Positions 26,320 through 38,478 of a stretch of DNA of 58,693 nt are shown piece by piece (within the stretch, counting starts at the first letter, position 1; each line of letters opens with the position of its first letter). The stretch covers positions 1 to 58,693 of the IMG/VR virus record IMGVR_UViG_3300035698_012504. The stretch is one strand, 5' to 3'. The translations under genes and the position numbers were made by a program. The notes below the pieces were generated by a model. That model did no database searches. It had not been told where the DNA came from and saw only the letters and a program-made list of their open reading frames with translations. The DNA comes from a virus.

Positions 26320-27300
26320 ATGAAAATTTTATTCTGTACATATGAAATGTCTGATTATGGATTAGATCTATTATATGATGGATTGTGTAAATTATTAGGA
26401 CCTGATAAAATATTCGAGTATCCAGTAAAACCATATTATCATGGCACAAGAGACGGAAGGTTTGCAAGATACCCTCAGTTTTTCAAATACCCATTAAAAC
26501 ATTCAAATGCTGATATAGATCGTAAACTAAGAAGAGATTTTTTCGATGTTATATTAGTAGGGTGTAGATCAAAAAATGATTTCACATATCCCGATGCGGT
26601 TAATGTAAATCATGAATATGTAATGATCAAAGAATTAATAAAACTGAAGTCAAAAAAGATACCTACTTTCTTAGTAGATCAAGATGACTTCCCACCAATT
26701 AATAACACTCTCTTTAAAAAAGAGATACCTAATTCTCTTGCTTATTTTAAGCGAGAGTATAGAAAGGATGTACACCATCCTAATAACATACACCCCCTCC
26801 CATTTTCTTTTTCTACAGATTTTATGCCAAACAGTAGATCTAAAATAAAAAATAGGATTTTGTTCTGGGCAGGGGATATAAATACAGATCATAGACGACA
26901 ATATATTGAGAGAATGAAACAAGAACTCAAGTTAGATTACAATAAGAAGTTTCCCCCTAATGAGTTCCATTCAATTTTAAGTAAATCTAGAATGGCTTTA
27001 AATCTTTTTGGATTTGGAAACGATACTGTTAGATATTATGAGATACCAGTATATGGTGCTATGTTATTCTCTATGAAATCAAACAACTTAATTCAACATG
27101 ATTTTATTAACAATAAATCTGCTATTCTTTTTTCGTCCCCTCAAGAAATGGTGGATAAATTTAAATTTTATAGGAAGAAGCATCTTCTTATAGAGAAGAT
27201 ATCAACTGAAGGGTTTAAACATGTTAGAAGATATCATAATAGTAAAACAAGGGCTGAACAGTTTATGAAAATAGTTAGGAATTATAATGGAAAGAAATAA
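26320..27300 (+). CDS. CgeB-like / GT-B-type glycosyltransferase (putative)
   Basis: The C-terminal RYYEIPVYGAMLFS pattern resembles the CgeB/Glyco_trans_1_2 family. ATG 26320 preferred to TTG 26308. Confidence 0.4.
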   Translation: MKILFCTYEMSDYGLDLLYDGLCKLLGPDKIFEYPVKPYYHGTRDGRFARYPQFFKYPLKHSNADIDRKLRRDFFDVILVGCRSKNDFTYPDAVNVNHEYVMIKELIKLKSKKIPTFLVDQDDFPPINNTLFKKEIPNSLAYFKREYRKDVHHPNNIHPLPFSFSTDFMPNSRSKIKNRILFWAGDINTDHRRQYIERMKQELKLDYNKKFPPNEFHSILSKSRMALNLFGFGNDTVRYYEIPVYGAMLFSMKSNNLIQHDFINNKSAILFSSPQEMVDKFKFYRKKHLLIEKISTEGFKHVRRYHNSKTRAEQFMKIVRNYNGKK

Positions 27301-28108
27301 AATATCAGTAGTTATACCTTGTTATAATTATGGGAGATTTATTGTTAGGTGTGTTAACTCAGTATTAATGCAGACATATAAAAATTATGAAATTATTATC
27401 GTGGATGATTACTCAGATGAGAAAACACGAACACTAATAAAACAACAAAGAGCTAAGAACAAAAAAATAATAAAAACTATTTTTAATTCTAAAAATTTAG
27501 GAACAGCTACATCTAGAAATAAAGGAATTGAACGAGCATCTGGTGATTATATTTTGCTATTAGATGCAGATGATTACCTTCTTACAAGATGCTTAGAAAA
27601 ATTAATAGTTGCTCATAAAAAGTATGAAGAAGACATAATATACTCTAAAAATATTAGATTATCTGCTACAGGTACTAGAACTGGTGTGGAGGGACAAAGC
27701 TATTCAATTGAGAGATTAAAAAATTATGAATGTGTTATGTTCGTAACATCATTATTTAAGAAAGAGCATTGGAACGAGGTCGGTAGATTTGATACATCTA
27801 TGGTAGCATGTGAAGATTGGGAATTCTGGATTAATATGGCGAAACATAGTCATTATGGTAAGTTGATAGACGATATACTATGGTGTAGAACAGATCATAA
27901 AACTTCTAAATTTGAAACAACTGATTCACATCGTATGGATGAGGTAGTAAGACAACTCAGAGAAAAACATCATCCTGGTTTTTTAAATGAGCAACGAAAT
28001 TGGAAAAAGAAAAATAGAAGAACTATAAGTACACCTATCAATAAACAACGAAGTTTATTGATCAAAAAATATGAAATAACTTCTAGAAATAAAGAAAGGG
28101 TAAAATAG
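27287..28108 (+). CDS. GT2 family glycosyltransferase
   Basis: VVIPCYN..IIIVDDYSDE...LLDADDYL...CEDWEFW. Confidence 0.8.
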   Translation: MERNKISVVIPCYNYGRFIVRCVNSVLMQTYKNYEIIIVDDYSDEKTRTLIKQQRAKNKKIIKTIFNSKNLGTATSRNKGIERASGDYILLLDADDYLLTRCLEKLIVAHKKYEEDIIYSKNIRLSATGTRTGVEGQSYSIERLKNYECVMFVTSLFKKEHWNEVGRFDTSMVACEDWEFWINMAKHSHYGKLIDDILWCRTDHKTSKFETTDSHRMDEVVRQLREKHHPGFLNEQRNWKKKNRRTISTPINKQRSLLIKKYEITSRNKERVK

Positions 28109-28962
28109 TGTTTGATAAAAAATATTCATCTTTGAAAAAAAGACATCTACAATTAAGAGAACATCTTGGAATAAGAACAGGAGTAGTTAAAAAAATAGAG
28201 AAAAACTCAACTAATACAGTAGGTATTATTATTCCTGCATTTAATCAATTAGCTTATTGTAAGAAATGTATTAACTCTGTGATTCACAATACTAAACAAT
28301 CATATAAATTAATTTTGGTAAATAATGGGTCTACCGATGGGATAGCACATTATTTTGATACAATAGAAGATGCAGAGGTAATACATTCATCTAAGAATCT
28401 AGGGTTTCCTGCAGGAGTTAACCTAGGTATAAAAAGACATCTTGCTCTAGGCTTAGGGCACTGTGTATTATTAAATACTGATACAGTTGTAACTCCTGGA
28501 TGGCTGAAGCGGTTAACTAGCTACTTCCCTTCTGATCCAAAGTTAGGAATGATTGGCCCTAGAACAAATTGTGCTGGATCAAAGCAACAATTACATGGTA
28601 TTGGGGAGTTAAACAAACCTAAAGAAATTAATGATTTTGGAAAACAATTAAGATTAAATCATGCTGGGCAATTAGAAGATATAAATGTTCTTATAGGATT
28701 TTGTGTAGTAATAAGAAAAAATGTATTGAGAGAAGTTGGACTACTTGATGAAAGATTTGGGTTAGGTAACTGTGATGATGACGATTATTGTAAAAGAGTA
28801 AAGATGGCAGGATATGACCTCAAAATGGCTAAGGATGTATATGTTCATCATTATGGAAGTAAAACATTTCAAGCAATGAAAGTAGATCGTGGGACTTTGA
28901 TTAAAGAAAATAGAAAGAAATTTCAAGAGAAGTGGAAAAAAGGAATGAAGAATGAAAAATAG
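28108..28962 (+). CDS. GT2 family glycosyltransferase (rhamnosyltransferase-like)
   Basis: IIIPAFNQ..LVNNGSTDG...NLGFPAGVN..LLNTDTVV...DDDDYC. GTG start overlaps the upstream TAG. Confidence 0.75.
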   Translation: MFDKKYSSLKKRHLQLREHLGIRTGVVKKIEKNSTNTVGIIIPAFNQLAYCKKCINSVIHNTKQSYKLILVNNGSTDGIAHYFDTIEDAEVIHSSKNLGFPAGVNLGIKRHLALGLGHCVLLNTDTVVTPGWLKRLTSYFPSDPKLGMIGPRTNCAGSKQQLHGIGELNKPKEINDFGKQLRLNHAGQLEDINVLIGFCVVIRKNVLREVGLLDERFGLGNCDDDDYCKRVKMAGYDLKMAKDVYVHHYGSKTFQAMKVDRGTLIKENRKKFQEKWKKGMKNEK

Positions 28963-29773
28963 AGCAATAGTAACTGTTACAGGAGGCGAGCCGTCATATA
29001 ATGAGTTAGCAACAATAACCCATTTTTTCATGAAACTTTATGCTAAAAAAGTTAATGCTGATTTTATTGTTTGGAATAATGTAGAGCAGCATAAATTTCC
29101 TCATTATAAAAAATTATTTATAGGGGATTTATTAGAACATTATAATCGGGTATTATATTTAGATACAGATATACTAGTTAAACTAGATTCGCCAGATATA
29201 TTTAATATAGTTCCCCCAGAAAAATTGGGGATGTATAATGAAGGTAGAGAATATAACGATCTTATCTCACAAAAAAGAATAGGGTCCTTTACGCAAGAAT
29301 ACAATAAAGTATTACTGGCGCATGGATTCCCTCCTGCAGACATTAGTAATTGGAGTGGAAAAAGTGAATTTAATACTGGGGTAATCGTTGCATCAAAAAA
29401 ACACATAACTTTATTTAGAGCACCCCTTAAAGAAATGATGGTTAAGGGTCTAAGAGATCAATCATATATTAACATGCGAGTAATATCTAGGAAGGTTCCT
29501 ATGATGGATATAGGGATCGATTTTAATTGTAAGTTCAATCATAAGAAGCCTGCTGAAAAGGCACACTTTATACATTTTATACATGTTATTGGGTATAAAG
29601 CAAGACAAGAAGAATTAGAGAAATTTGTTAAGGTCCAATATGGGGAAAAAAGGGTCCGCGAAATATACTGTGGAAAAATCGGTCAACCCCTAAAGGAAAT
29701 CGCTCCACCAAAAGAAGAAGAAGAGAAAAATATAGAAGAAGGAAATTCATCGGAAGAAAAAGATAATGAATAA
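28952..29773 (+). CDS. nucleotide-diphospho-sugar transferase, GT8-like (putative), with an acidic C-terminal tail
   Basis: VLYLDTDILV DxD motif in a GT-A-like context. Confidence 0.4.
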   Translation: MKNRAIVTVTGGEPSYNELATITHFFMKLYAKKVNADFIVWNNVEQHKFPHYKKLFIGDLLEHYNRVLYLDTDILVKLDSPDIFNIVPPEKLGMYNEGREYNDLISQKRIGSFTQEYNKVLLAHGFPPADISNWSGKSEFNTGVIVASKKHITLFRAPLKEMMVKGLRDQSYINMRVISRKVPMMDIGIDFNCKFNHKKPAEKAHFIHFIHVIGYKARQEELEKFVKVQYGEKRVREIYCGKIGQPLKEIAPPKEEEEKNIEEGNSSEEKDNE

Positions 29774-30293
29774 ACTTTTTTGTATTGGGCTCTCTAGAAC
29801 AGGAACAACCAGTATTCATAAAGCTTTAAATATATTAGGAATAAATAGCTTTCATTTTCCTACTAACAATAGGCAAATAAAATCTCATAAAGCATTATCA
29901 GATATTACAATTTCATATAGATTTGAACAGTTAGATAAAAAATATCCAAATTCTAAGTTTATATTTACGACAAGGGATATAGAAGGTTGGTTAAAATCAT
30001 GTAAATATCACTTCGAAGTAAGATCAAGTATGTCTAATATAAAATCTGGAAAATGGAAAAAAATATTATCAAAAGCAAGGAAGGATATGTATGGGATAGA
30101 TTTTTATAATGAAAAAGTTTGGAGAGATGTATGTATCAGGCATACTGATTATGTTAAAGAATATTTTAAAAATAGAGGCGATGATTTATTAATTATAGAT
30201 ATATGCTCTGGTGAAGGATGGAAAAAAATCTGCCCATTTTTGAATTGTAGCATACCAAATAAGGAGTTTCCGCATGCCTTCAGAACAAAATAA
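29766..30293 (+). CDS. sulfotransferase-family protein (Sulfotransfer_4-like)
   Basis: N-terminal PAPS-loop-like IGLSRTGTTSIHKALNILG. Paralogue at 33584. Confidence 0.55.
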   Translation: MNKLFCIGLSRTGTTSIHKALNILGINSFHFPTNNRQIKSHKALSDITISYRFEQLDKKYPNSKFIFTTRDIEGWLKSCKYHFEVRSSMSNIKSGKWKKILSKARKDMYGIDFYNEKVWRDVCIRHTDYVKEYFKNRGDDLLIIDICSGEGWKKICPFLNCSIPNKEFPHAFRTK

Positions 30294-31056
30294 GAATTTT
30301 GCTATAATCTTTCCCGGAAGGACAGGATGCACGTTTACTATGCACTCTATAAATAAAAATAAAAATGTATCTATTCTATTAGAACCATTGCCAAATAATG
30401 CTAGAGAAATAATAGAGCAATATAATAAGGAATCAAATACTGATTACAAGTTGATAAACATTAAGCGTGCTGTGGAGAGCAACACCGTACCATATGGTAT
30501 GTCTCTTCTTATGAAACTAATAGCCAAGAGTCAAGAAAATATACTGAGAGATTTCTACTCTAGAAAAAGACCCACGACCGAAGTATGTGGAACAAACATT
30601 CAACTAGCAGATGTAATGGACCATGATAAATTTATAAAAATGATGCAAGAATATAATGTACAAATTATAGTATATACTCGTCAAAATATTATTAAACATT
30701 ATGTATCGTGGAGAAATCTTAGAATAAGAATAAAACACGGAAACAAACAAGTTGAACCATATACTGTGGATATAGATCACTTAAAATTATACTTAGCTAA
30801 AGAAAACGTTAATGATAAACATGTTAACTTTGTTAAAAAAATAGGTAACCCGTATATGGTTACTAGTTACGAAGAATTTTTAGAGAACAAGAAAAGAAAT
30901 ATACGAAATATATGTAATTTTGTAGGATTTAAACACTGTGGCGAACTATCTAAAATGACAAAGAAAACTAATGATGATTTAAAAAAATCAATTAAAAATT
31001 ACGAAGAAGTTGCACAAGTATTAAAAAATACTAAATTTGAATGGATGCTAAAATAG
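30274..31056 (+). CDS. sulfotransferase-like protein (Stf0-like, putative)
   Basis: IIFPGRTGCTF P-loop-like motif near the N-terminus. Size is consistent. Confidence 0.35.
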   Translation: MPSEQNKNFAIIFPGRTGCTFTMHSINKNKNVSILLEPLPNNAREIIEQYNKESNTDYKLINIKRAVESNTVPYGMSLLMKLIAKSQENILRDFYSRKRPTTEVCGTNIQLADVMDHDKFIKMMQEYNVQIIVYTRQNIIKHYVSWRNLRIRIKHGNKQVEPYTVDIDHLKLYLAKENVNDKHVNFVKKIGNPYMVTSYEEFLENKKRNIRNICNFVGFKHCGELSKMTKKTNDDLKKSIKNYEEVAQVLKNTKFEWMLK

Positions 31057-31082
31057 AAAGGCTAGGGATAGAGAAATATTAA

Positions 31083-31970
31083 ATGAATATAGAAAAACAT
31101 TTGAGTGAACATACAAAAATAATGTTTGGACCATTCTTTGGAGAGTTTGGATGGGAAGTACTAAAATGGGCACCATTTATAAAATGGTATCGTAATAAGT
31201 ACCAATCTAAAAAAATAGCAGTTTCCACTAGAGGAGACCGATTTGACTTATATTATAATTCAGCTGATTTTATCCACACATTCAAGATAAAAGGAGACTA
31301 TAAACGATTCAAACCCACTGGAGTCGAATGTAATTTACCAGGTGAGATAAGAAAAAATATTATGAATGATATAAGAAATAAATATCCAAATTGGTATATA
31401 TTTAATCCATCATGGAGTATTTCCCCAGGTAAGTCTATCAATAAACATAATTCATTATATCATTTCGAACCTAGGCCATCGAACTCTAAAAAAATATTGG
31501 ATAGACTAGATGGTAAAATTCCAATAGTTATTAGCTCAAGACATAGACTAGATAATAATCTTCGCAATTGGGGAAGGAAGCGTTGGATAAATCTTTTTAG
31601 ATTAATCGAAAAAGAAGACAAGTATGTAGTTTTTGTGGCCGGTAAATCTCCATCATACATCAAATCTTCAAATAATAATTTTTACAACCTAGAAAGTCTT
31701 GTGGATGAACAAACATCAGAGGTAGGATTATCTATAGCAGCAATCAACGCATCTCGACTTGTAGTGTCCTCCCAATCAGGAATAGTATTATTGACAAATA
31801 TATTAAAGACCCCTATTATATTTTGGGGGGATCAAATAAGGAGACATAGTTGTAAGGATAATCCTCTAAATAATAATGTAATTGGAATAGAAGATCTAAA
31901 CTATAATATTCGTCCGAAGGTAATATTAGAAGAGATCTCTAAGTTTTTTAAGGAGTTAACACATGAATAA
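31083..31970 (+). CDS. hypothetical protein in the glycan island (possible glycosyltransferase)
   Basis: Long ORF. The function guess rests on context alone. Confidence 0.3.
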   Translation: MNIEKHLSEHTKIMFGPFFGEFGWEVLKWAPFIKWYRNKYQSKKIAVSTRGDRFDLYYNSADFIHTFKIKGDYKRFKPTGVECNLPGEIRKNIMNDIRNKYPNWYIFNPSWSISPGKSINKHNSLYHFEPRPSNSKKILDRLDGKIPIVISSRHRLDNNLRNWGRKRWINLFRLIEKEDKYVVFVAGKSPSYIKSSNNNFYNLESLVDEQTSEVGLSIAAINASRLVVSSQSGIVLLTNILKTPIIFWGDQIRRHSCKDNPLNNNVIGIEDLNYNIRPKVILEEISKFFKELTHE

Positions 31971-32628
31971 TTTTTCAGTAGTTTCTGTGCCAAGAAGTGG
32001 TTCCCATTTCTTGGCAAAAATGTTAAATAAAAGTCCAAGTTGGACAGTTATCCCAGAGCACGACGATGACTTCGGAAGAGAGATCGGAAAGGGATTTTCT
32101 AAAAAAGAGAAATGGCTTAGAAGGATAAATAAAAGGCTTCAACAAGACTTTTATGGGGAAGTGTCTCCACAACATATATTTCATCTTGATGAAATTAATG
32201 CAAATAAAAAAGTATGTTTGTACCGACACCCATATGATTTTATGCTGTCTACTTTCAATAGAAAAAACCAATATATTACTCAGTTCCCAATGGCATATGG
32301 CCTCTGGTATATCCCATTCTATTTTACAATAGATAGATATATTAGAGAAGGTATATACTCTATGAAATTTGAGAAGATGATTAATAATAAAAAAGTTATA
32401 TTAAATTTGTGTGATTATTTAGGAATAAATGATATCGATTCAGATAAAATTAATATGAATAAAAAAATAAACAGTTCGGAGTCTCATAATCAAAAAAAAC
32501 AGTGGAAATCCTTATCAATGTTAACCCCGATTCAATTTGAAAAATTAAAAGCTATGGATTGGTTTTGTAAGAAGTATTACGGAGACACAATGCAAAAACA
32601 CCATAATAAAAGATTAGAAGTTGAGTAA
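31963..32628 (+). CDS. sulfotransferase-like protein
   Basis: VVSVPRSGSHFLAKML resembles the 5'-PSB loop (P[KR]SG[ST]). Confidence 0.45.
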   Translation: MNNFSVVSVPRSGSHFLAKMLNKSPSWTVIPEHDDDFGREIGKGFSKKEKWLRRINKRLQQDFYGEVSPQHIFHLDEINANKKVCLYRHPYDFMLSTFNRKNQYITQFPMAYGLWYIPFYFTIDRYIREGIYSMKFEKMINNKKVILNLCDYLGINDIDSDKINMNKKINSSESHNQKKQWKSLSMLTPIQFEKLKAMDWFCKKYYGDTMQKHHNKRLEVE

Positions 32629-32629
32629 T

Positions 32630-33085
32630 ATGTTAGATGTAAATATGAAAGATCTTGTAGAAAAAGTAAAGGATGCGTTGTATCGTACCCATTTTGTTTT
32701 TGGACCTTCTGATAAAAGATTACATATTGGTAAAAATGTAAAGGTTTGGAATACTCTTTTCAATGTAGTATCTGGGCATGTTTATATAGGAAATAATTCA
32801 TTTTTTGGACATAATTGTATGGTTCTTACTGGTAGACATAAATGGGTTGATGGTAAACGTGCAAGATTATCTGGTAAAGATGAAATTCCTAAAAAAGGAT
32901 TTGATATAAATATAGGTAAAGGGTGTTGGATTGCATCAGGCGCTATAATTTTAGGAGGGGTTAGTATTGGAGACCACTCAATTGTAGCAGCAGGTTCAGT
33001 AGTTACTAAGGATGTCCCATCCGGAATGGTTGTGGCTGGAAACCCCGCTAGAATTATAAAATCAGTAAATGAGTTGAGTGTATAA
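32630..33085 (+). CDS. hexapeptide-repeat (left-handed beta-helix) acyltransferase
   Basis: IGKGCWIASGAIILGGVSIGDHSIVAAGSVVTKDVPSGMVVAGNPARIIK. Confidence 0.75.
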   Translation: MLDVNMKDLVEKVKDALYRTHFVFGPSDKRLHIGKNVKVWNTLFNVVSGHVYIGNNSFFGHNCMVLTGRHKWVDGKRARLSGKDEIPKKGFDINIGKGCWIASGAIILGGVSIGDHSIVAAGSVVTKDVPSGMVVAGNPARIIKSVNELSV

Positions 33086-33087
33086 AT

Positions 33088-33573
33088 ATGATAAAATTAA
33101 ATGTTGGTTGCGGCACAGATATAAAGGAAGGGTATGTTAATATTGATGTTCGTAAAACTCATCCAAGTGTTAAAATAGCAGATGTATGTAAATTACCATA
33201 TAAAAATGGTACTGTAGATGAGATAGTTGCAAAAGATGTGTTTGAACATATATCGTTTCATGACACTCAGAAGCTTTTGAAACATTGGGTTTCTAAATTG
33301 AAGAAAGGGGGAAAATTATTCATTAAATGTCCTTCGATTAATATGATTGCAAAAACGATTATAAAGAACAATAATAACCTAGAAGAAATGGAGGATATGA
33401 TAAGAAGAATTTTTGGTGGTCAAAATTACCCAGAAAACACTCATTTGACAATAGGCCATCCAAAGTTAATGAGAAAATATTTGAAGGGTTTGGGCATTAA
33501 ACATAAAAACATTAAAATACAAAATGGTGGATTCGGAAACGGTACTAATATGAAAGTTTGGGTTGTAAAATAA
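33088..33573 (+). CDS. class I SAM-dependent methyltransferase
   Basis: LNVGCG motif I, then VDEIVAKDVFEHI and GGKLFI. Confidence 0.7.
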   Translation: MIKLNVGCGTDIKEGYVNIDVRKTHPSVKIADVCKLPYKNGTVDEIVAKDVFEHISFHDTQKLLKHWVSKLKKGGKLFIKCPSINMIAKTIIKNNNNLEEMEDMIRRIFGGQNYPENTHLTIGHPKLMRKYLKGLGIKHKNIKIQNGGFGNGTNMKVWVVK

Positions 33574-33583
33574 GGATATAGTT

Positions 33584-34114
33584 ATGAAAATATTTGGATT
33601 AGGGTTAGCAAAAACAGGGTCAAATAGTTTAAACAATGCTTTAAAAGTATTGGGATATTCTTCTATACATGGTCCAAAAAATTGGAAACAAATAGATGAT
33701 CATGAAGGAGTGACAGATGTCGTAATATTATTTCCATTTGAAGATATTTATAAACGATATCCACATGACAAATATATCTTAATGGTTAGGGATAATGATA
33801 AATGGATAGATTCATTAGAGTACCAATATTTTAAGAATTTGGGAGGACGTCCACAAATTCAGATAGATAGAATGATTGAATTTTATGGAACATATAACTT
33901 TAATCGAACCACATGGATAAATAGAAAGATTAAACATGAACACGATGTGAAAGAATCTTTTAAAGGTAATCCTAATTTTATAACTATGGATATATGTGGG
34001 GGAGTTGATGGATGGGACATTCTTTGTAATTTTTTAGATAAGGATGTTCCGGATATAATATTTCCTCATTCAAATAAAAGAAAAGTAAATAGGAAGAAAA
34101 AACTGACAGCATAG
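33584..34114 (+). CDS. sulfotransferase-family protein (Sulfotransfer_4-like), paralogue of 29766
   Basis: FGLGLAKTGSNSLNNALKVLG. Collinear with 29766-30293 through to ...FPH... Confidence 0.55.
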   Translation: MKIFGLGLAKTGSNSLNNALKVLGYSSIHGPKNWKQIDDHEGVTDVVILFPFEDIYKRYPHDKYILMVRDNDKWIDSLEYQYFKNLGGRPQIQIDRMIEFYGTYNFNRTTWINRKIKHEHDVKESFKGNPNFITMDICGGVDGWDILCNFLDKDVPDIIFPHSNKRKVNRKKKLTA

Positions 34115-34128
34115 GAGTATTAGAGGAT

Positions 34129-34914
34129 ATGAAAATAAACTACTACATAATGTCAGCATTTAATGTATGGTTTGATTATTTCAATTTAGCAATTCCTACA
34201 AATGAATGGACTAAAAGAAGATTAGATATTTTTGAGAAAACTACTTTAAGGTCTATTGGAAATCAGACTAATAAGAACTTTAAATATATTGTTTTCTTTT
34301 ACAAACCTGCATGTGACGAAGATGATATAGTAAGAATAGACGGCTATAGTGATATAACTCCTATCTTTTTAGATGAACCATTTAACTCTAAGATTCATTT
34401 GAAGCCCATACTTGAGAAAGATACAAAAGATGGTGATGTTGTAGTAGTGACAAAAATTGATTCTGATGATATATTATATCCTACGTTTGTTGATGTAGTA
34501 TATGGGTTGGTTGATACTGACTTTCTGGATAGAAATAAAGCATTTTATTGTTTTCCAAAAGGGTATCGTTATAGATTGTATGATTATTCTCTTTGGAAAG
34601 AAAAATGGACAACATGTTCTATTTTTACGATTGTTGAAAGAATAATTGATGGTGAATTACAATCTGCTTTTAGAGGATATGACTATAAGCATACTGAAGT
34701 GTCTAGAATGTTTAAATCTCAAAAACTTCAAAGACCAGTTAAGGGTATTGGAGCTATGTGGTTAAAATATGATAGTGAAGTATCTATGAATGTAAGAAAT
34801 AAAGATAAAATGTTAGCCAATAAGATTAAGCATAAATTTATAAAACTAGTTGATGATGATTTAGCTAGGCGCGTGTGTGATGATTTTAATATTCCTATAG
34901 ATAGTTTAAAATAG
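34129..34914 (+). CDS. putative rhamnosyl-transferase-like glycosyltransferase
   Basis: W..RRLDIFEKTTLRSIGNQTNKNF and TKIDSDDILYPTF. Paralogue at 48960. Confidence 0.4.
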   Translation: MKINYYIMSAFNVWFDYFNLAIPTNEWTKRRLDIFEKTTLRSIGNQTNKNFKYIVFFYKPACDEDDIVRIDGYSDITPIFLDEPFNSKIHLKPILEKDTKDGDVVVVTKIDSDDILYPTFVDVVYGLVDTDFLDRNKAFYCFPKGYRYRLYDYSLWKEKWTTCSIFTIVERIIDGELQSAFRGYDYKHTEVSRMFKSQKLQRPVKGIGAMWLKYDSEVSMNVRNKDKMLANKIKHKFIKLVDDDLARRVCDDFNIPIDSLK

Positions 34915-34924
34915 AGGATTCAAT

Positions 34925-35473
34925 ATGAAACAGAAAATGTCTGGTCGAGGTCGTAAAGATAGTAGAATTGCTTTACGAAAATATATAGAAGTGCTTCCTG
35001 GTGGAGTAATGGTGGAGGTTGGTAGTTGTAAAGGAGAGTCAACTGTACTGTTTGCAAAGAAGTTTAAGTTAGTGTTTGCAATTGACCCATGGGAAGGATT
35101 TTATCAATATGGAGATAAGAAAGATCAATTTCTAGATGCAGGAATGTTAAAAGAGGAAAGAGATTTTGATAAAGCTGTACATGGGGTTAGCAATATAGCT
35201 AAGATATGTTCTAAGAGTAATTTAGTTGTAGATAAGTTTGATGATAAATCTTTGGACTTTGTTTATATAGATGGATGCCACACCTATGAATCAGTTCGTG
35301 AAGATATATCCATTTGGCTTCCAAAAATTAAACCAACTGGTATGATTGGTGGACATGATTATAATCTTAAGGGTTGGCCTTTGGTTGTGAAAGCTATACA
35401 TGAATCTTTTGGAAAACCACCAGATATACGAATGAATGGGGCAAACTGGGCATATAGGAAGGTGGAATTATGA
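34925..35473 (+). CDS. class I SAM-dependent methyltransferase (Methyltransf_24/CmcI-like)
   Basis: MVEVGSCKGEST...AIDPW...YIDGCHTYESV...GGHDY. Confidence 0.55.
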   Translation: MKQKMSGRGRKDSRIALRKYIEVLPGGVMVEVGSCKGESTVLFAKKFKLVFAIDPWEGFYQYGDKKDQFLDAGMLKEERDFDKAVHGVSNIAKICSKSNLVVDKFDDKSLDFVYIDGCHTYESVREDISIWLPKIKPTGMIGGHDYNLKGWPLVVKAIHESFGKPPDIRMNGANWAYRKVEL

Positions 35474-36213
35474 ATGAAGTAGATTTTTTAGAAGAGGTAT
35501 CCCATACATATGTATCCCCAGATGATCCACAATATGAAAAAATGGATGAATTATCTGTTGCAACATTTAAACCATTCCTAAAAAAAGATTATAATGGATT
35601 AATGCTAGGATATTTTAATGGTAGAGATACTGATAAATTGTATCCTCTTTTGAAAAGACTTGATGTGGTAGAAGGGTGTAAAGAGTTTATTGGAAGAGGA
35701 CTTGCTAAAGGATATCCTAATGTGTACTTCTTCAATTCCTTATTCGAAGACTTTGAGCTACCTGAAGACACTAAACCATATGATTGTGTATTTGCTTTAT
35801 ATGTAATGGAACATGTATTAGATGTTGATAAGTTTTTGGATATGATTAGTAGAGTAATATCTAAAGATGGATTACTTTTTATTGTTGTTCCAAATTCTAG
35901 ATCGTTATCTAGACAATTGGCAAAGCATATGGAATTAATTGATGACTTAAAAACATTGACTGAGAATGATCTCAATCATGGCCACCGACGAGTATATGAT
36001 AGAGTTGAATTGAATAGAGATTTAGAGAGAAATGGATTTGAAGTTATTTCACAAGGTGGAATAATGCTGAAGATACTTGCAGATTTTCAAATGAGTAAGA
36101 TGATTGAATTAGGCATTTTAGGTGATGCTCAGTTGGAAGGGTTGTATAAATTGGGACTTGAATATCCAGATCTATGCGGATCTTTGTTTTCCATATGTAA
36201 ACAAAAGGATTAG
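35470..36213 (+). CDS. SAM-dependent methyltransferase-like protein
   Basis: YDCVFALYVMEHV..DKFL..ISKDGLLFIVVPN. Motif I is atypical. ATGA overlap. Confidence 0.5.
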   Translation: MNEVDFLEEVSHTYVSPDDPQYEKMDELSVATFKPFLKKDYNGLMLGYFNGRDTDKLYPLLKRLDVVEGCKEFIGRGLAKGYPNVYFFNSLFEDFELPEDTKPYDCVFALYVMEHVLDVDKFLDMISRVISKDGLLFIVVPNSRSLSRQLAKHMELIDDLKTLTENDLNHGHRRVYDRVELNRDLERNGFEVISQGGIMLKILADFQMSKMIELGILGDAQLEGLYKLGLEYPDLCGSLFSICKQKD

Positions 36214-36215: not shown

Positions 36216-37487
36216 ATGACAAACGTTTTAGTATTTCCGTGTGGTAGTGAAATTGGATTAGAGATACATCGCGCACTTCAATATGAAAAAGATATAAGTC
36301 TATATGGGTTATCTAGTGTTGATGATCATGGAAAATATGTTTACGCTAATTATATCGATGGGATACCTTATGTATCAGATGAAGAATTTATACCAAAAAT
36401 AGTAGAAGTTATTAAAAAATATAAAATAGATGTTATTTTTCCTGCACATGATAGTGTCCTTTTAGAATTATCTAATCACGATCTACCATGTGAACTTATA
36501 GGGTCGTCATATAACACAAATTATATATGTAGAAGAAAAAGTGTATCTTATAATACATTCGAATATATGATGAATGTCCCAAAAATGTATAGTAGGGATT
36601 ATGTAAATTATAATGATTTCCCTATATTTTTAAAACCAGATATAGGGCAAGGATCAGTAGGCACGGTTCTAGTTAATAATAGGAAAGAATTGAATGCTGA
36701 ATTATATAAAGACTCATCTCTATTAATATTAGAGTATTTACCTGGAAAAGAATATACTGTAGATTGTTTCTCAGATAAAGATGGGGTATTGAAATTTTGT
36801 GGCTCCAGGGAAAGAAAGAGAATAAAGAATGGTATATCTGTTAACTCTTCTCCAGTACATAACGAAGAGTTTCAAAATATAGCAAAAATTATTCAAGAGA
36901 AATTAAAATTCATAGGGCCTTGGTTCTTTCAATTGAAAGAGAATAAGGATGGGTATTTATCTTTACTTGAGATTGCTTCGAGAATAAGCGGAACAATGGG
37001 ACTGAATAGAAATCTGGGTGTTAATTTTCCATTGTTAAGCATCCACGTTGCCCTTGGGCGGGATATAGATATTATTCCAAACACATATGATATTGAAGTA
37101 GATAGGGCATTGATTAGTAGATACGATATAGATATTGATTATGAAAATGTTTATGTGGATCTTGACGATACGTTAATAATCGATAAGAAAATAAATGAAT
37201 TCCTATTAGCTTTTTTATATCAATGTCAAAACAAAAATAAAAATATTTATTTAATATCAAAACATATTAAAGATCCATATATAACTCTTATGAATAAACA
37301 TATAGATTATAAATTCTTTAAAACAATCATTCATATAGAAACGACTGACAACAAATACAAATATATTAAACCCAATTCTATTTTTATAGATGATTCATTT
37401 GCAGAAAGAAGAGATGTGTATGAAAACTGCAATATTCCCACATTCTCTACAGATGGGGTAGAAGGGTTATTTGATTGGAGAAGATAA
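36216..37487 (+). CDS. ATP-grasp enzyme fused to a C-terminal HAD-like phosphatase domain
   Basis: ATP-grasp pattern FPIFLKPDIGQGSVG...ILEYLPGKEYTVD. HAD motifs VDLDDTLI and FIDDS. Confidence 0.6.
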   Translation: MTNVLVFPCGSEIGLEIHRALQYEKDISLYGLSSVDDHGKYVYANYIDGIPYVSDEEFIPKIVEVIKKYKIDVIFPAHDSVLLELSNHDLPCELIGSSYNTNYICRRKSVSYNTFEYMMNVPKMYSRDYVNYNDFPIFLKPDIGQGSVGTVLVNNRKELNAELYKDSSLLILEYLPGKEYTVDCFSDKDGVLKFCGSRERKRIKNGISVNSSPVHNEEFQNIAKIIQEKLKFIGPWFFQLKENKDGYLSLLEIASRISGTMGLNRNLGVNFPLLSIHVALGRDIDIIPNTYDIEVDRALISRYDIDIDYENVYVDLDDTLIIDKKINEFLLAFLYQCQNKNKNIYLISKHIKDPYITLMNKHIDYKFFKTIIHIETTDNKYKYIKPNSIFIDDSFAERRDVYENCNIPTFSTDGVEGLFDWRR

Positions 37488-37659: not shown

Positions 37660-38478
37660 ATGAAATCGATTAGCGACAAGTTATTAGAAAATTATTTTAA
37701 TAGTGGTGGTCTAGCTATACCCCAAAAACATTGGTTGAGAAATAAACCAATTGCACATAAAGGTTTATGGACACCAGATAATCCAAGTAATATTCCAGAG
37801 AATAGTCTTCCTGCAGTAGAAAATGCGATTAGACATAAATATGCAGTTGAAGTAGATATACAGTTATCATTAGATGGAGAATTAGTAGTATTTCATGACT
37901 TATTTTTAAATAAACTATGTGGAATAGGTGGGACAATTTCTCAATATACTCTGAAGCAATTAAAAGAATTCAAACTTTCAGAAACAGAATATACAATTCC
38001 AACATTAGAAGAAGTATTAGAACTTACATCTAAAAAAACACCCGTTCTTGTAGACATTAAAGGAGATGTTATGGGGAAGCAAGGAACTGCAAAATTATTG
38101 GCGCACGAGTTAAAAAATTATAAAGGGCATGCTGCCATGCATTCTTTTAACTTTAGTGACTTAAATTACTTCAAACGAGTTGCCCCCAATATTCTTAGGG
38201 GACAAATAATATCTGACTTCAATAAACAAGATGTATCGTTCATTCTTAAATTATTATTAAGAGGAGCAGCCAATTTATTTGAGGCCAAAGGAGATCCTCA
38301 TTTTATTTCATTGGATGTAAGGTCTAAAGTGCAAAGAATCATTAAGTCAGTATGGGCTAATAAAAGAGGCGGAGTAATATTGGCCTGGTTGGTTGATACT
38401 AAAACAATGGAAGCAGTATCAAGGGGATTTGCAGATAACATTATATTTGAAAGAATTAATCCCAAACAACCGTGGTAA
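37660..38478 (+). CDS. glycerophosphodiester phosphodiesterase (GDPD) family protein
   Basis: IAHKG....PENSLPAVENAI..KYAVEVDIQLSLDGELVVFHD, the GDPD catalytic signature. Confidence 0.8.
   Translation: MKSISDKLLENYFNSGGLAIPQKHWLRNKPIAHKGLWTPDNPSNIPENSLPAVENAIRHKYAVEVDIQLSLDGELVVFHDLFLNKLCGIGGTISQYTLKQLKEFKLSETEYTIPTLEEVLELTSKKTPVLVDIKGDVMGKQGTAKLLAHELKNYKGHAAMHSFNFSDLNYFKRVAPNILRGQIISDFNKQDVSFILKLLLRGAANLFEAKGDPHFISLDVRSKVQRIIKSVWANKRGGVILAWLVDTKTMEAVSRGFADNIIFERINPKQPW

What the first reader, a model, noticed from the sequence alone, without database searches (positions are those of the whole stretch)
29766..34114. Four sulfotransferase-like genes of at least two types in one phage locus
29766-30293 and 33584-34114 are clear paralogues with [IG]-G-L-[SA]-[RK]-T-G-[TS]-x-S-[IL]-x2-A-L-x-[IV]-L-G at the N-terminus (Sulfotransfer_4-like). 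31963-32628 has PRSGSHFL, and 30274-31056 has PGRTGCTF at the equivalent position (5'-PSB-loop-like).

Established knowledge: PAPS-dependent sulfotransferases are uncommon in bacteria. Known cases include Nod factors, mycobacterial sulfolipids and some sulfated exopolysaccharides.

I know of no characterised case in phages, so multi-site sulfation of a glycan by a phage would be new biology. The calls rest on short N-terminal motifs only.
Basis: partly seen in the sequence, partly recalled or inferred. Interest (0 to 1): 0.65.

Follow-up and report, generated by a model that had tools for sequence, protein, structure and literature searches.

The report
Four sulfotransferase genes in phage glycan locus
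An uncultivated large phage carries a 14-kb sugar-chain-building gene block that includes four predicted sulfate-adding enzymes of three different types, which suggests (but does not prove) that a bacterial virus makes a heavily sulfated glycan, something never shown experimentally.

Summary
All four ORFs exist as given, and all four are sulfotransferase-like beyond the N-terminal motifs.

- **29766-30293 and 33584-34114:** true paralogues (35% identity, E 8e-36). Both are solid Pfam Sulfotransfer_4 members (E 2e-33 and 5.5e-26).
- **30274-31056:** has no direct Pfam hit. An exhaustive search found 364 relatives. 47 of 50 sampled hit Sulfotransfer_3, and their profile hits the solved NodH structure (E 1e-15) and Stf0.
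- **31963-32628:** a divergent family, with only 13 relatives found. It matches the NodH/Stf0-type profile at 96% probability (E 2e-9) and keeps an invariant R88...S96 pair.

The genes lie in a co-directional block of 17 soluble enzymes (24654-38478): glycosyltransferases, methyltransferases and an acetyltransferase. The block has no flippase, polymerase or PAPS-synthesis gene. The genome looks like a T4-like or jumbo phage.

The core of the locus recurs in at least two related metagenomic phages. Short Sulfotransfer_4 genes occur in at least 72 IMG/VR contigs but in none of 50,697 deposited phage genomes.

Single phage sulfotransferase genes have been listed before as auxiliary genes, and none has been characterised. 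The acceptor of the sulfate is inferred, not shown. Verdict: real, moderately interesting, a new variant of a known kind.

The parts
24654..26315 (+). Two-domain GT2 glycosyltransferase (fusion); first gene of the glycan block
   Evidence: PF00535 E 1.1e-49 in two stretches, PF13641; PHROG GtrB-like/glycosyltransferase; homologue in L001-L003
26308..27300 (+). GT1-like (GT-B) glycosyltransferase
   Evidence: PF13524 Glyco_trans_1_2 E 5.2e-14
27287..28108 (+). GT2 glycosyltransferase
   Evidence: PF00535 E 9.5e-35
28108..28962 (+). GT2 glycosyltransferase
   Evidence: PF00535 E 3.9e-20
28952..29773 (+). GT8 glycosyltransferase
   Evidence: PF01501 E 8.2e-7; homologues in L001, L007
29766..30293 (+). 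ST4a: short (175 aa) Sulfotransfer_4 sulfotransferase. 5'-PSB loop G8-L-S-R11-T-G-T-T-S16; 3'-PB R70-D-x3-W-x2-S78
   Evidence: PF17784 E 2.1e-33; PDB SgdX2 8y9p E 1.4e-8 and Schistosoma SULT 5tiv/4mua E 4e-7 to 1e-6, with both motifs aligned
30274..31056 (+). NodH/Stf0-type sulfotransferase (Sulfotransfer_3 clan). 5'-PSB P14-G-R16-T-G18-C-T; 3'-PB R136-x-N138-x2-K141-x3-S145
31083..31970 (+). Conserved 295-aa protein, tentatively a GT9-like (GT-B) glycosyltransferase; always adjacent to the 31963-type gene
   Evidence: No direct Pfam/PHROG hit. Family profile vs heptosyltransferase 2gt1/6dfe E 0.004; one member hits PF01075 at 0.0014. Adjacency in window, L001, L007, L167
31963..32628 (+). 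Divergent Sulfotransfer_3-like protein, probable sulfotransferase. 5'-PSB P10-R-S-G-S14; 3'-PB R88-H-P-Y-D-F-M-L-S96; invariant D62-x-Y-G-E66
   Evidence: PF13469 25.2 bits (cut-off 27), E 2.2e-5; 7/13 family members hit PF13469 and no other family; hhalign of 13-member family vs NodH-type family 96.2%, E 2.1e-9, 178 columns; R88 and S96 invariant
32621..33085 (+). Hexapeptide-repeat acyl/acetyltransferase
   Evidence: PF00132 E 2.7e-15
33088..33573 (+). SAM-dependent methyltransferase (Methyltransf_11)
   Evidence: PF08241 E 3.9e-8
33584..34114 (+). ST4b: short (176 aa) Sulfotransfer_4 sulfotransferase, paralogue of ST4a. 5'-PSB G7-L-A-K10-T-G-S-N-S15; 3'-PB R69-D-x3-W-x2-S77
   Evidence: PF17784 E 5.5e-26; 35% identical to ST4a, E 8e-36
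34129..34914 (+). Rhamno_transf-family putative glycosyltransferase
   Evidence: PF11316 E 4.8e-9
34925..35473 (+). Methyltransf_24 methyltransferase
   Evidence: PF13578 E 7.7e-18
35470..36213 (+). Methyltransf_23 methyltransferase
   Evidence: PF13489 E 2.6e-16
36216..37487 (+). ATP-grasp ligase with unassigned C-terminal extension
   Evidence: PF15632 E 3.2e-21, PF02655; NCBIfam carbamoyl-phosphate-synthase-like, below cut-off
37660..38478 (+). Glycerophosphodiester phosphodiesterase (GDPD); last gene before the nucleotide-metabolism genes; membership in the block uncertain
   Evidence: PF03009 E 3.3e-18; PHROG tail-fibre/phosphodiesterase
48960..49862 (+). Satellite Rhamno_transf-family glycosyltransferase outside the main block
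   Evidence: PF11316 E 8.5e-18
53730..54476 (+). Satellite GT2 glycosyltransferase outside the main block
   Evidence: PF00535 E 3e-33

Best explanation
Positions 24654-38478 are a glycan assembly and tailoring block of a large, uncultivated T4-like or jumbo phage.

**Proposed mechanism**
- Seven to nine soluble glycosyltransferases (GT2, GT1-like, GT8, Rhamno_transf, probably GT9-like) build an oligo- or polysaccharide in the host cytoplasm.
- Three or four SAM methyltransferases, a hexapeptide acetyltransferase and four PAPS-dependent sulfotransferases decorate it.
- The sulfotransferases belong to three families: two short Sulfotransfer_4 paralogues, one NodH/Stf0-type, and one divergent Sulfotransfer_3-like.
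- Each sulfotransferase would bind 3'-phosphoadenosine-5'-phosphosulfate through its N-terminal strand-loop-helix (5'-PSB) and its R...S strand-helix motif (3'-PB), and transfer SO3 to a different hydroxyl or sugar. The result would be a multiply sulfated, polyanionic glycan.
- PAPS must come from the host or from phage genes outside the window.

**Shown:** family membership, motifs, synteny, and absence of membrane, export and PAPS-synthesis genes in the window.

**Inferred:** that the enzymes are active, that the substrate is a glycan, and what carries that glycan.

**Ranking of acceptors:** glycan on phage virion proteins about 0.4; host envelope polysaccharide remodelled during infection about 0.3; small molecule or other about 0.15; DNA-linked glycan about 0.05.
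For: **Sulfotransferase identity**
- PF17784 E 2e-33 and 5.5e-26, with PDB hits to PAPS-dependent enzymes and both motifs aligned.
- 30274 family: 47/50 members hit PF13469; the profile hits NodH at E 1.2e-15; model pLDDT 93.6; sulfotransferases are the top fold hits.
- 31963 family: hhalign 96.2%, E 2.1e-9 against the NodH-type family; R88 and S96 invariant.

**Glycan context**
- Contiguous, co-directional genes, often overlapping, with GT2, GT8, GT1-like, Rhamno_transf, methyltransferase and hexapeptide domains.
- The core (GT9-like unknown, 31963-type, ST4, GT8, Rhamno_transf, MT24, MT11) is conserved in related contigs L001-L004 and L007-L008, at 45-57% identity for the 31963-type protein.
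- In cellular genomes the same short ST4 sits beside NodH-type sulfotransferases in 26 of 78 loci and beside GT2 or hexapeptide genes in at least 27 of 80. This mirrors sulfated-polysaccharide clusters such as synechan xss (PMC8205485).

**Cytoplasmic assembly**
- None of the 17 proteins has a hydrophobic segment of TM strength.
- No Wzx, Wzy, ABC-transporter or priming-transferase domain was found.

**Phage identity:**
Against: - There is no biochemical evidence of any kind.
- Characterised Sulfotransfer_4 members (Schistosoma SULT-OR, SgdX2) act on small molecules, not glycans (own knowledge).
- ORF 31963 is below the Pfam gathering score (25.2 vs 27 bits). Its family gives no significant HMM hit to any solved structure, its AF2 model failed (pLDDT 42.8), and its loop arginine is replaced in two distant relatives.
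- No PAPS-synthesis gene is in the window. Many bacteria assimilate sulfate through APS and keep little PAPS.
- No nucleotide-sugar synthesis gene and no identified acceptor protein is in the window.
- No capsid, portal or terminase gene is in the window, so 'phage' rests on replication genes and one PHROG virion protein.
Confidence: 0.65

Rival explanations
1. The block remodels a host cell-envelope polysaccharide (O-antigen, capsule, teichoic-acid-like polymer or EPS) during infection, for example to block superinfection or change surface charge. Host lipid-carrier and export machinery would be used, and the sulfotransferases would act on host-made repeat units.
For: T4-like cyanophages carry large LPS/cell-wall gene sets that have been interpreted this way: 22 genes and 13 glycosyltransferases in S-SCSM2R (PMC12801897). 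The closest cellular ST4 relatives are in cyanobacteria, which make sulfated EPS. PHROG assigns the first glycosyltransferase to GtrB-like O-antigen conversion families. A GDPD phosphodiesterase lies at the end of the block.
Against: The locus has no membrane protein, flippase, polymerase or priming transferase. Classical seroconversion modules have 1-3 genes and belong to temperate phages, and no integrase or repressor was seen in the window.
Confidence: 0.3
2. The glycosyltransferases and sulfotransferases hypermodify phage DNA. A glycan would be built on a modified base, as with glucosyl- or arabinosyl-hmC, and then sulfated, methylated or acetylated to evade restriction and CRISPR.
For: The block is embedded between replication genes (clamp loader, primase) and nucleotide-metabolism genes (DHFR, dCMP deaminase, RNR, ThyX). 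In L007 it abuts DNA polymerase B and DnaB. Virus-encoded glycosyltransferases that build diverse glycans on DNA are known (Pyle et al. 2024, cited in PMC12619734).
Against: No dCMP/dUMP hydroxymethylase or other base-hypermodification enzyme was detected in the window; ThyX, DHFR and dCMP deaminase are ordinary dTMP supply. No precedent exists for 7-9 glycosyltransferases or for any sulfate on DNA. GT2, GT8 and Rhamno_transf are typical polysaccharide or glycoprotein families.
Confidence: 0.05
3. Some of the four are not active sulfotransferases. ORF 31963 and/or ORF 30274 would be P-loop-fold proteins with another activity (kinase or nucleotide-binding scaffold) or degenerate paralogues, and only the Sulfotransfer_4 pair sulfates anything, possibly a small molecule rather than a glycan.
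Against: Neither protein has a Walker-A GxxxxGK[ST] motif. Both have the sulfotransferase-type loop plus an in-register R...S 3'-PB motif, invariant in 50 and in 13 sequences respectively. The only Pfam families hit by their relatives are sulfotransferase families. The 31963 type is conserved and syntenic across phages at 45-57% identity, which argues for purifying selection.
Confidence: 0.2
4. The window is not from a phage but from a cellular genome, plasmid or eukaryotic giant virus, so the 'phage' framing is wrong.
For: No capsid, portal, terminase or tail gene was identified in the window or reachable flanks. The large ORFs 15041-16684 and 17324-18589 have no match in 50,697 phage records. 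The 31963-type gene is absent from IMG/VR.
Against: - All ORFs of 100 aa or more that are not nested in a longer + strand ORF are on one strand, and many overlap.
- The T4 gp44-type clamp loader hits phrog_168 at E 1e-61, with best tblastn hits all phages.
- There are also a phage primase, a RusA-like resolvase, PDDEXK_15, many HNH and GIY-YIG homing endonucleases, and phrog_18911 virion structural protein at E 5e-20.
- A relative carries a UvsX-like RecA.
- There is no ribosomal or other cellular core gene and no tRNA.
Confidence: 0.07

Closest known systems
Synechan (xss) sulfated exopolysaccharide cluster of Synechocystis sp. PCC 6803, and similar cyanobacterial EPS clusters (PMC8205485)
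   Same: It is one gene cluster combining several glycosyltransferases (8) with more than one sulfotransferase (2) from distinct bacterial subfamilies, and the sugar-to-sulfate stoichiometry matches the gene numbers. The nearest cellular relatives of the window's ST4 genes are cyanobacterial (47-48% identity). Cellular ST4 loci often hold a second, NodH-type sulfotransferase.
   Different: xss has Wzx flippase, Wzy polymerase, PCP and regulators, and acts on a lipid-linked repeat unit. The window's block has none of these and no membrane protein. It has four sulfotransferases including Sulfotransfer_4 (the synechan paper surveyed PF00685, PF03567 and PF13469), adds methyl- and acetyltransferases, and sits in a phage genome.
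Giant-virus fibril glycosylation clusters with a predicted sulfotransferase (Moumouvirus australiensis ma457-ma468; Cotonvirus) (PMC10117803)
   Same: A virus-encoded, host-independent cytoplasmic glycan cluster of glycosyltransferases, acetyltransferase and methyltransferases plus a predicted sulfotransferase. Sulfation of virion glycans is proposed but not validated.
   Different: Those are eukaryote-infecting Nucleocytoviricota with one sulfotransferase and their own bifunctional ATP sulfurylase/APS kinase and nucleotide-sugar pathways. Here it is a tailed-phage-like genome with four sulfotransferases of three families and no PAPS or nucleotide-sugar synthesis gene in the window.
Mycobacteriophage virion glycosylation (Freeman et al. 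2023, Cell Host Microbe; cited)
   Same: Phage-encoded soluble glycosyltransferases (with methyltransferases in some phages) build glycans on capsid and tail-tube proteins in the cytoplasm. This is the only demonstrated phage virion glycosylation and is the model for my preferred acceptor.
   Different: Those phages have one to a few glycosyltransferases located beside structural genes and no sulfotransferases. Here the block lies among replication and nucleotide-metabolism genes and is far larger.
NodH (Nod-factor/LPS sulfotransferase, PDB 9vki) and Stf0 (mycobacterial trehalose 2-sulfotransferase, PDB 1tex)
   Same: These are the closest solved relatives of the 30274 family (E 1.2e-15 and 2e-7). 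They share the same R-[ST]-G-S-T loop, R..N..K...S block and YEDL...FLG block, and both sulfate carbohydrates using PAPS.
   Different: ORF 30274 is only distantly related (24-32% identity to its own nearest family members), carries an extra ~50-residue helical insert after the first strand-helix, and its acceptor is unknown.
Sulfotransfer_4 (PF17784; IPR040632 'S. mansoni-type'): Schistosoma oxamniquine sulfotransferase (4mua, 5tiv) and SgdX2 (8y9p)
   Same: Significant sequence matches with the G-L-x-[RK]-T-G-T loop, the R-D-x3-W-x2-S block and the C-terminal G-W-x2-[LI]-C-x-F-L...P...FPH block aligned.
   Different: The phage proteins are about 175 aa against about 250-260 aa. They lack roughly profile positions 30-65. 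The characterised members sulfate small molecules, while here the context is a glycan locus.
Sulfotransferase genes previously listed as phage auxiliary metabolic genes (OM43 phage MVGs, Synechococcus phage S-SRM01, glacier-ice viruses) (PMC10580990, PMC8290583)
   Same: Predicted PAPS-dependent sulfotransferases (PF13469/PF00685) encoded by phage genomes, with function unknown.
   Different: Those are single genes with no described glycan-locus context. None of the four window proteins has a tblastn match at E <= 0.01 (ST4a: E <= 0.001) in 50,697 deposited phage records, so those genes are not close relatives.

Membership tests
Pfam Sulfotransfer_4 (PF17784), tested for ST4a 29766-30293 and ST4b 33584-34114 | Whole-protein score above the curated gathering cut-off (22.8 bits) | tested here: met
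   116.4 and 92.2 bits, E 2.1e-33 and 5.5e-26
Pfam Sulfotransfer_4 (PF17784), tested for ST4a and ST4b | 5'-PSB strand-loop-helix motif and 3'-PB R...S motif in register with solved PAP-bound members | tested here: met
   G-L-S-R-T-G-T-T-S aligns with G-L-P-R-T-G-T-N-S of 5tiv and G-F-G-R-T-G-T-A-S of 8y9p. T-T-R-D-I-E-G-W-L-K-S aligns with T-I-R-D-K-Y-D-W-L-Y-S and T-V-R-D-P-V-Q-W-H-R-S. R70 is invariant in the 5-sequence phage alignment.
Pfam Sulfotransfer_4 (PF17784), tested for ST4a and ST4b | Full-length domain architecture (about 215 profile positions) | tested here: inconclusive
   The match is split in two stretches, the best covering profile 66-209. About 35 profile positions between the loop helix and the next strand are missing. 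The short form is itself widespread: 72 viral loci, and 546 cellular relatives by tblastn, although in 21 of the 78 cellular loci checked the ST4 match lies in a mechanically called ORF of about 1.4 kb. It is therefore probably a functional subfamily, but no short member is characterised.
NodH/Stf0-type sulfotransferases (Pfam Sulfotransfer_3 PF13469 / Sulphotransf PF09037), tested for ORF 30274-31056 | Significant direct match to the family model | tested here: not met
   No Pfam family at E <= 0.01; only PF00685 at E 0.024 over residues 193-238
NodH/Stf0-type sulfotransferases, tested for ORF 30274-31056 | Transitive homology: significant match to proteins that are themselves family members | tested here: met
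   phmmer E 1.7e-22 to 1e-10 to 30 relatives. 47 of 50 aligned relatives hit PF13469, 31 hit PF00685, 14 hit PF09037. The profile hits NodH 9vki at E 1.2e-15 and Stf0 1tex at E 2.3e-7.
NodH/Stf0-type sulfotransferases, tested for ORF 30274-31056 | Sulfotransferase fold (P-loop-like alpha/beta core) with 5'-PSB and 3'-PB residues conserved | tested here: met
Sulfotransfer_3-like sulfotransferases, tested for ORF 31963-32628 | Score above the Pfam gathering cut-off (27 bits) | tested here: not met
   25.2 bits, E 2.2e-5, N-terminal 50 residues only. 7 of 13 relatives hit PF13469 at E <= 0.01, best 1.5e-5.
Sulfotransfer_3-like sulfotransferases, tested for ORF 31963-32628 | Profile-level homology over the whole domain to a bona fide sulfotransferase family | tested here: met
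   hhalign of the 13-sequence family vs the NodH-type family: 96.2%, E 2.1e-9, 178 columns. With only 2 or 4 sequences it was 80-84%, E 1e-5. The A1 HMM hits all four close members at 15-21 bits.
Sulfotransfer_3-like sulfotransferases, tested for ORF 31963-32628 | 5'-PSB and 3'-PB motifs | tested here: met
   P10-R-S-G-S14 is present, and G13 is near-invariant. R88-H-P-Y-D-F-M-L-S96 fits R-x-P-x-D-x3-S, with R88 and S96 invariant in 13 sequences. Caveat: R11 is G or C in two distant members.
Sulfotransfer_3-like sulfotransferases, tested for ORF 31963-32628 | Sulfotransferase fold | tested here: inconclusive
   The AF2 run with 2 sequences gave pLDDT 42.8 and is unusable. No further prediction jobs were available. 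HMM vs PDB was not significant.
PAPS-dependent sulfotransferase (enzyme class EC 2.8.2.-), all four proteins | Binding of PAPS and transfer of the sulfuryl group to an acceptor | not testable with these tools
   Needs biochemistry (PAPS/PAP binding, [35S]PAPS transfer)
PAPS-dependent sulfotransferase (enzyme class), all four proteins | Catalytic base (His, Glu or Asp) positioned next to the acceptor hydroxyl | tested here: inconclusive
   Candidates only: D46/D45 in ST4a/ST4b (replaced by G in L007); E37 near-invariant in the 30274 family; E66 invariant in the 31963 family. No ligand-bound model was examined.
Wzx/Wzy- or ABC-dependent polysaccharide biosynthesis cluster | Priming phosphoglycosyl transferase, flippase or ABC transporter, polymerase or co-polymerase | tested here: not met
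   No such Pfam domain in any window ORF scanned. No TM-strength segment in the 17 block proteins.
Tailed bacteriophage genome | Major capsid protein, portal, large terminase | tested here: not met
   None detected in the window or reachable flanks. The source contig is longer than the window (80 kb), so absence is uninformative.
Tailed bacteriophage genome | Phage-type replication and accessory genes and gene organisation | tested here: met
   phrog_168 clamp loader E 1e-61, primase, RNR, homing endonucleases. Best tblastn hits are jumbo and T4-like phages at 33-36%. phrog_18911 virion structural protein E 5e-20 and a RusA-like resolvase. All 79 ORFs of 100 aa or more that are not nested are on the + strand.

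The most novel reading that the evidence does not exclude
The phage coats its own virion (capsid, tail or fibres) with a multiply sulfated, methylated and acetylated glycan. The glycan would be assembled entirely in the cytoplasm without a lipid carrier, forming a glycosaminoglycan- or mucin-like polyanionic shell. This would be the first sulfated glycoconjugate made by a bacterial virus. Three unrelated sulfotransferase families would give position-specific sulfation, and the short Sulfotransfer_4 form would be a previously unrecognised carbohydrate sulfotransferase class. An even more radical reading, a sulfated glycan on phage DNA, is not excluded; I put it at about 0.05.
Probability: 0.3. 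Interest if true: 0.8.

Novelty: new variant of a known kind. Interest (0 to 1): 0.55.

Why it matters
- **No demonstrated precedent.** Sulfated glycans are central to eukaryotic cell-surface biology and are rare and poorly understood in prokaryotes. No virus of bacteria has been shown to make one.
- **A compact test system.** A phage block with four sulfotransferases of three families, free of export machinery, would be a compact soluble toolkit for position-specific glycan sulfation, of interest for enzymatic synthesis of sulfated oligosaccharides.
- **Possible biology.** If the product decorates virions, it bears on phage adhesion to mucus or EPS, on charge-based host recognition and on immune shielding.
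- **A hint about an understudied family.** The short Sulfotransfer_4 form is widespread in bacteria, archaea and viral contigs. Its context here suggests it acts on carbohydrates, whereas all characterised members act on small molecules.

Tried and rejected
- **Direct nucleotide similarity.** Megablast of 26000-38000 against phages gave no match.
- **Protein search of deposited phages.** tblastn of each of the four proteins against 50,697 phage records gave no match. No annotated phage homologue could be used.
- **PHROGs and NCBIfam.** Neither had a family for any of the four.
- **Word-indexed protein search.** It found only self for ORF 30274 and one relative for ORF 31963. The exhaustive HMMER search and the metagenome scan were needed.
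- **Structure of ORF 31963.** Prediction from a 2-sequence alignment failed (pLDDT 42.8).
- **31963 family against solved structures.** HMM searches were never significant; the best was the 4gox PKS sulfotransferase domain at E 0.038 with the single sequence.
- **Viral-contig scans.** Scans for the 31963 type found nothing.
- **PAPS supply genes.** I looked for APS kinase, ATP sulfurylase and PAPS reductase across nearly all window ORFs of 70 aa or more and found none. 'Serglycin' hits are artefacts of my GS spacers.
- **Virion genes beyond the window ends.** The flanks hold only small unknown ORFs.
- **Kinase reading rejected.** I considered that 30274 and 31963 are P-loop kinases. There is no Walker A, an R...S 3'-PB motif is present, and their relatives hit only sulfotransferase families.
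- **Classical seroconversion module rejected as the primary reading.** The block is too large, has no membrane components and shows no lysogeny genes.

Full report
**1. Observation**

The four ORFs are in the sequence exactly as described, all on the + strand: 29766-30293 (175 aa), 30274-31056 (260 aa), 31963-32628 (221 aa) and 33584-34114 (176 aa). The quoted N-terminal motifs are present. The only slip is that the first residue of the pattern in the 33584 product is L rather than [IG]. The 29766 and 33584 products are 35% identical over 170 residues (E 8e-36), so they are real paralogues. HMMs built from the three families find exactly these four ORFs in the window and no other.

**2. The Sulfotransfer_4 pair**

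Both proteins score far above the gathering cut-off of Pfam PF17784: 116 and 92 bits against 22.8, E 2.1e-33 and 5.5e-26.

Against solved structures, ST4a hits SgdX2 (8y9p, E 1.4e-8), the Schistosoma oxamniquine-activating sulfotransferases (5tiv, 4mua and others, E 4e-7 to 1e-6) and 9kf1. Three blocks align:
- the G-L-x-[RK]-T-G-T loop (5'-phosphosulfate-binding, 5'-PSB);
- the R-D-x3-W-x2-S block (3'-phosphate-binding, 3'-PB);
- the C-terminal G-W-x2-[LI]-C-x-F-L...FPH block.

The proteins are a short form, about 175 aa against about 250, and lack roughly 35 profile positions after the first helix.

That short form is common:
- A two-pattern scan found 72 IMG/VR viral contigs encoding it.
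- A one-pattern scan of species-representative genomes found 546 cellular relatives. The best are in filamentous cyanobacteria (Nostoc 48%, Hormoscilla 47%), with others in many bacterial phyla and some archaea.

**3. ORF 30274-31056**

On its own it has no credible Pfam, NCBIfam, PHROG or PDB hit, and the word-indexed search found only itself. The exhaustive HMMER search found 364 relatives at E <= 1e-3, 31 of them at E <= 1e-10, mostly about 240 aa.

In a 50-sequence alignment the invariant or near-invariant residues are R16, G18, E37, G106, R136, N138, K141, S145 and Y199. The consensus reads FV.LF.GRTGST.L ... GFKTK ... RRN.VK..VS ... YEDLL ... FLGV.
- 47 of the 50 members hit Sulfotransfer_3, 31 hit Sulfotransfer_1 and 14 hit the Stf0 family.
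- The profile hits the solved LPS sulfotransferase NodH (9vki) at E 1.2e-15, then Stf0, CurM-ST and tyrosylprotein sulfotransferases.

An AlphaFold2 model built with this alignment is confident (pLDDT 93.6, pTM 0.88).
- Foldseek against the PDB returns only sulfotransferases among the 29 hits at E <= 1e-3, but with modest TM-scores of 0.3-0.5.

The fold by itself therefore does not discriminate. The assignment rests on the sequence profile and on the motif pattern: there is no Walker-A GK[ST], and a 3'-PB R...S is present. I regard this protein as a NodH/Stf0-type sulfotransferase with high confidence (about 0.9).

**4. ORF 31963-32628**

This is the weakest of the four.
- Alone, it reaches 25.2 bits on Sulfotransfer_3 (cut-off 27), over its N-terminal 50 residues only. 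It also gives E 0.038 to the sulfotransferase domain of a cyanobacterial olefin synthase (4gox).
- Only three close relatives exist in 5.8 billion proteins. None is in IMG/VR.
- The metagenome scan added nine more distant ones at 23-30% identity.

In the 13-sequence alignment R88 and S96 are invariant. They lie in R-H-P-Y-D-F-M-L-S, which fits the canonical R-x-P-x-D-x3-S 3'-PB motif. A D-x-Y-G-E block is also invariant. The loop is G-R-S-G-T-x-F-L in most distant members, but its Arg is replaced in two of them.

The profile-profile comparison with the NodH-type family improved as the alignment deepened:

| Sequences in the 31963-family alignment | hhalign probability | E-value |
|---|---|---|
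| 2 | 84% | 8e-6 |
| 4 | 80% | 1.4e-5 |
| 13 | 96.2% | 2.1e-9 (178 columns, both motifs and the C-terminal [FY]E.[ML]...LG[IV] block in register) |

Seven of the 13 members hit Sulfotransfer_3 and no other Pfam family appears. The one structure prediction I spent on it used only two sequences and failed (pLDDT 42.8), so its fold is untested. I rate it a probable sulfotransferase (about 0.8).

**5. Context**

The four genes lie inside a contiguous, co-directional block, 24654-38478, with frequent start/stop overlaps. In order, the genes are:
1. a two-domain GT2
2. a GT1-like protein
3. GT2
4. GT2
5. GT8
6. ST4a
7. the NodH-type sulfotransferase
8. a conserved 295-aa protein
9. the 31963-type sulfotransferase
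10. a hexapeptide acyltransferase
11. Methyltransf_11
12. ST4b
13. a Rhamno_transf-family protein
14. Methyltransf_24
15. Methyltransf_23
16. an ATP-grasp ligase
17. a GDPD phosphodiesterase

Further observations on the block:
- The 295-aa protein gives a weak GT9 heptosyltransferase signal at family level: PDB profile E 0.004, and PF01075 at 0.0014 in one member.
- Two more glycosyltransferases sit downstream at 48960 and 53730.
- None of the 17 proteins has a hydrophobic stretch of transmembrane strength.
- No flippase, polymerase, ABC transporter or priming transferase is present.
- No ATP sulfurylase, APS kinase or PAPS reductase is present among the window ORFs scanned.

**6. What the genome is**
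- All non-nested ORFs of 100 aa or more are on one strand. GC is about 31% throughout, and there are no tRNAs.
- The window encodes a T4 gp44-type clamp loader (phrog_168, E 1e-61; best tblastn hits Ralstonia jumbo phage RsoM2USA and T4-like cyano- and pelagiphages at 33-36%), a phage primase, a class I RNR, ThyX, DHFR, a dCMP deaminase, a RusA-like resolvase, several HNH and GIY-YIG homing endonucleases, and a protein of PHROG 18911 'virion structural protein'.
- No capsid, portal or terminase gene is in the window or in the reachable flanks.
- Several large ORFs are novel, with no phage match.

I conclude it is a fragment of a large, deeply divergent tailed phage (about 0.9).

**7. Conservation of the locus**

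The 57%-identical relative of ORF 31963 lies on contigs from four independent datasets (L001-L004). They hold a syntenic block: a GT2 fusion, three GT8 genes, ST4, the 295-aa protein, the hexapeptide transferase, the 31963-type gene, Rhamno_transf and MT24. They also carry extra sugar-tailoring genes (radical SAM/B12, a DegT aminotransferase, WbqC), and a UvsX-like RecA and a Volactin homologue lie upstream.

A 45%-identical relative (L007, from a 70-kb contig, with another copy on a 186-kb contig) has the core next to DNA polymerase B and DnaB. The order is: 306-aa protein, 31963-type gene, MT11, MT24, GT8, ST4, Rhamno_transf.

The combination of ST4 and a 31963-type gene is therefore an ancestral feature of this phage lineage. 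The NodH-type gene and the second ST4 are additions in the window's genome. Among the 72 IMG/VR ST4 loci, only two have a second (NodH-type) sulfotransferase within 8 kb. Four in one phage locus is thus unusual.

In cellular genomes it is different. 26 of 78 ST4 loci hold more than one sulfotransferase-like ORF within 6 kb, and at least 27 of 80 have GT2 or hexapeptide-transferase neighbours. This is the pattern of sulfated-polysaccharide clusters.

**8. Mechanism**

The best-supported reading is a cytoplasmic glycan assembly line. Its product is O-methylated, O-acetylated and sulfated at several positions by enzymes of three families, using PAPS from the host.

Shown: the family assignments, the motifs, the synteny, and the absence of membrane, export and PAPS genes.

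Inferred: catalytic activity, a carbohydrate as acceptor, and the carrier of that carbohydrate. The block has no lipid-carrier machinery, and the only demonstrated phage precedents for soluble multi-enzyme glycan synthesis are virion glycoproteins (mycobacteriophages, and giant-virus fibrils among eukaryotic viruses). I therefore rank:
- a virion-protein glycan first (about 0.4);
- remodelling of a host envelope polymer second (about 0.3);
- small-molecule or other acceptors (about 0.15);
- DNA-linked glycans (about 0.05).

**9. Comparison with what is known**

| Known system | Relation to this locus | Source |
|---|---|---|
| Synechan xss cluster | Closest characterised analogue: 2 sulfotransferases and 8 glycosyltransferases, but Wzx/Wzy-dependent | PMC8205485, |
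| Moumouvirus and Cotonvirus clusters | Closest viral analogues: one predicted sulfotransferase plus their own SAT/APS kinase, unvalidated | PMC10117803, |
| Single sulfotransferase genes in phages | Reported as auxiliary genes, with the explicit statement that their function in phages is unclear | PMC10580990, PMC8290583; |
| Cyanophage S-SCSM2R | Claimed by its authors to have possibly the highest glycosyltransferase count in a marine phage genome (13); the word 'sulfotransferase' does not occur in the paper | PMC12801897, |

I found no paper describing a phage-encoded sulfotransferase as such. None of the four proteins has a detectable relative in 50,697 deposited phage genomes.

**10. Verdict**

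- Bacterial sulfotransferase genes are not rare.
- Viral sulfotransferase genes have been noticed before.
- The glycan target is an inference.

The enzymes are new members of known families, and one family is very sparsely populated. The system is an export-less phage glycan block with four sulfotransferases of three types, conserved in part across a phage lineage. I class it as a new variant of a known kind. Interest is moderate (0.55). It is not paradigm-breaking, but it is a concrete and experimentally tractable lead on the open question of what sulfotransferases do in phages.

Noticed in passing
window 27-10289: 22 of 27 consecutive small + strand ORFs (72-162 aa) end in the same C-terminal tail, roughly [DN]-[IVM]-[ILF]-x-[KRQ]-G-[IV]-x-[IV]-stop. 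Only 1 of 64 ORFs elsewhere in the window does so. They have no Pfam hit. The same array is on independent contigs L083/L084. This is a large tandem family of small paralogous proteins of unknown function.
   Followed up: partly
window 6789-7037 and 8517-8786: Two members of the small-ORF array carry a His/Leu/Pro repeat (HLHPHLHPHLHLHPHPHPH...). It could bind metal, or it could be a by-product of a DNA repeat. This was not examined.
   Followed up: no
window 56158-57222: A 354-aa protein matches Pfam Volactin (PF25216) at E 8e-61, an actin-like protein family, in a phage genome. A Volactin homologue also lies just upstream of the related glycan locus on L001. PHROGs has no family for it.
   Followed up: partly
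window 31083-31970; L001 8660-9553; L007 9076-9996; L167 1577-2413: A conserved ~295-aa protein with an invariant P-x2-G-E-F-G-W motif is always adjacent to the 31963-type sulfotransferase, even in a 25%-identical relative. It shows only a weak GT9 heptosyltransferase signal. It is possibly the glycosyltransferase that makes the sulfotransferase's substrate.
   Followed up: partly
window 36216-37487: An ATP-grasp ligase (PF15632, 'ATP-grasp in the biosynthetic pathway with Ter operon') has an unassigned C-terminal extension of about 130 residues, inside the glycan block. It might add an amino acid to a sugar carboxylate. It was not found in the related loci.
   Followed up: no
window 37660-38478: A stand-alone GDPD glycerophosphodiester phosphodiesterase resembles a domain found in a PHROG tail-fibre family (phrog_16641). 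It may hint at a glycerol-phosphate polymer (teichoic-acid-like) on the host.
   Followed up: no
window 40573-43803, 40033-40554, 46574-48415, 18611-19177, 20747-21434, 52200-53009, 54473-55291, 57179-58075: The window has an unusually high load of homing-endonuclease-like genes: HNH, GIY-YIG, and repeated Cys-rich CapR-homology/HNH paralogues. The RNR ORF is 1076 aa, but PHROG alignment covers only its first ~490 residues, so an intein or fusion is possible.
   Followed up: no
L087, L088, L105, L110, L114, L121, L135, L136, L137, L138, L142-L145, L147, L149, L150, L155, L157, L161, L163 (cellular genomes): In many bacterial and archaeal genomes the best ST4 HMM match lies in an ORF of about 1.4 kb (~465 aa; ORFs called mechanically from the first start codon, match position within the ORF not checked), frequently directly next to a NodH-type sulfotransferase. 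This may be an uncharacterised ST4 fusion architecture.
   Followed up: no
L001 13062-20383: The related phage locus carries extra sugar-tailoring genes absent from the window: a GNAT acetyltransferase, WbqC, a B12-binding radical SAM enzyme, a DegT/DnrJ aminotransferase, and further Rhamno_transf and GT2 genes. The glycan made by this phage lineage therefore appears to vary between genomes.
   Followed up: no
window 11561-12328 and 19174-19704: The phage encodes a peptidyl-tRNA hydrolase (PF01195, E 6e-34) and a Macro domain protein (PF01661, E 3e-9). These are possible counter-defence or translation-rescue functions.
   Followed up: no
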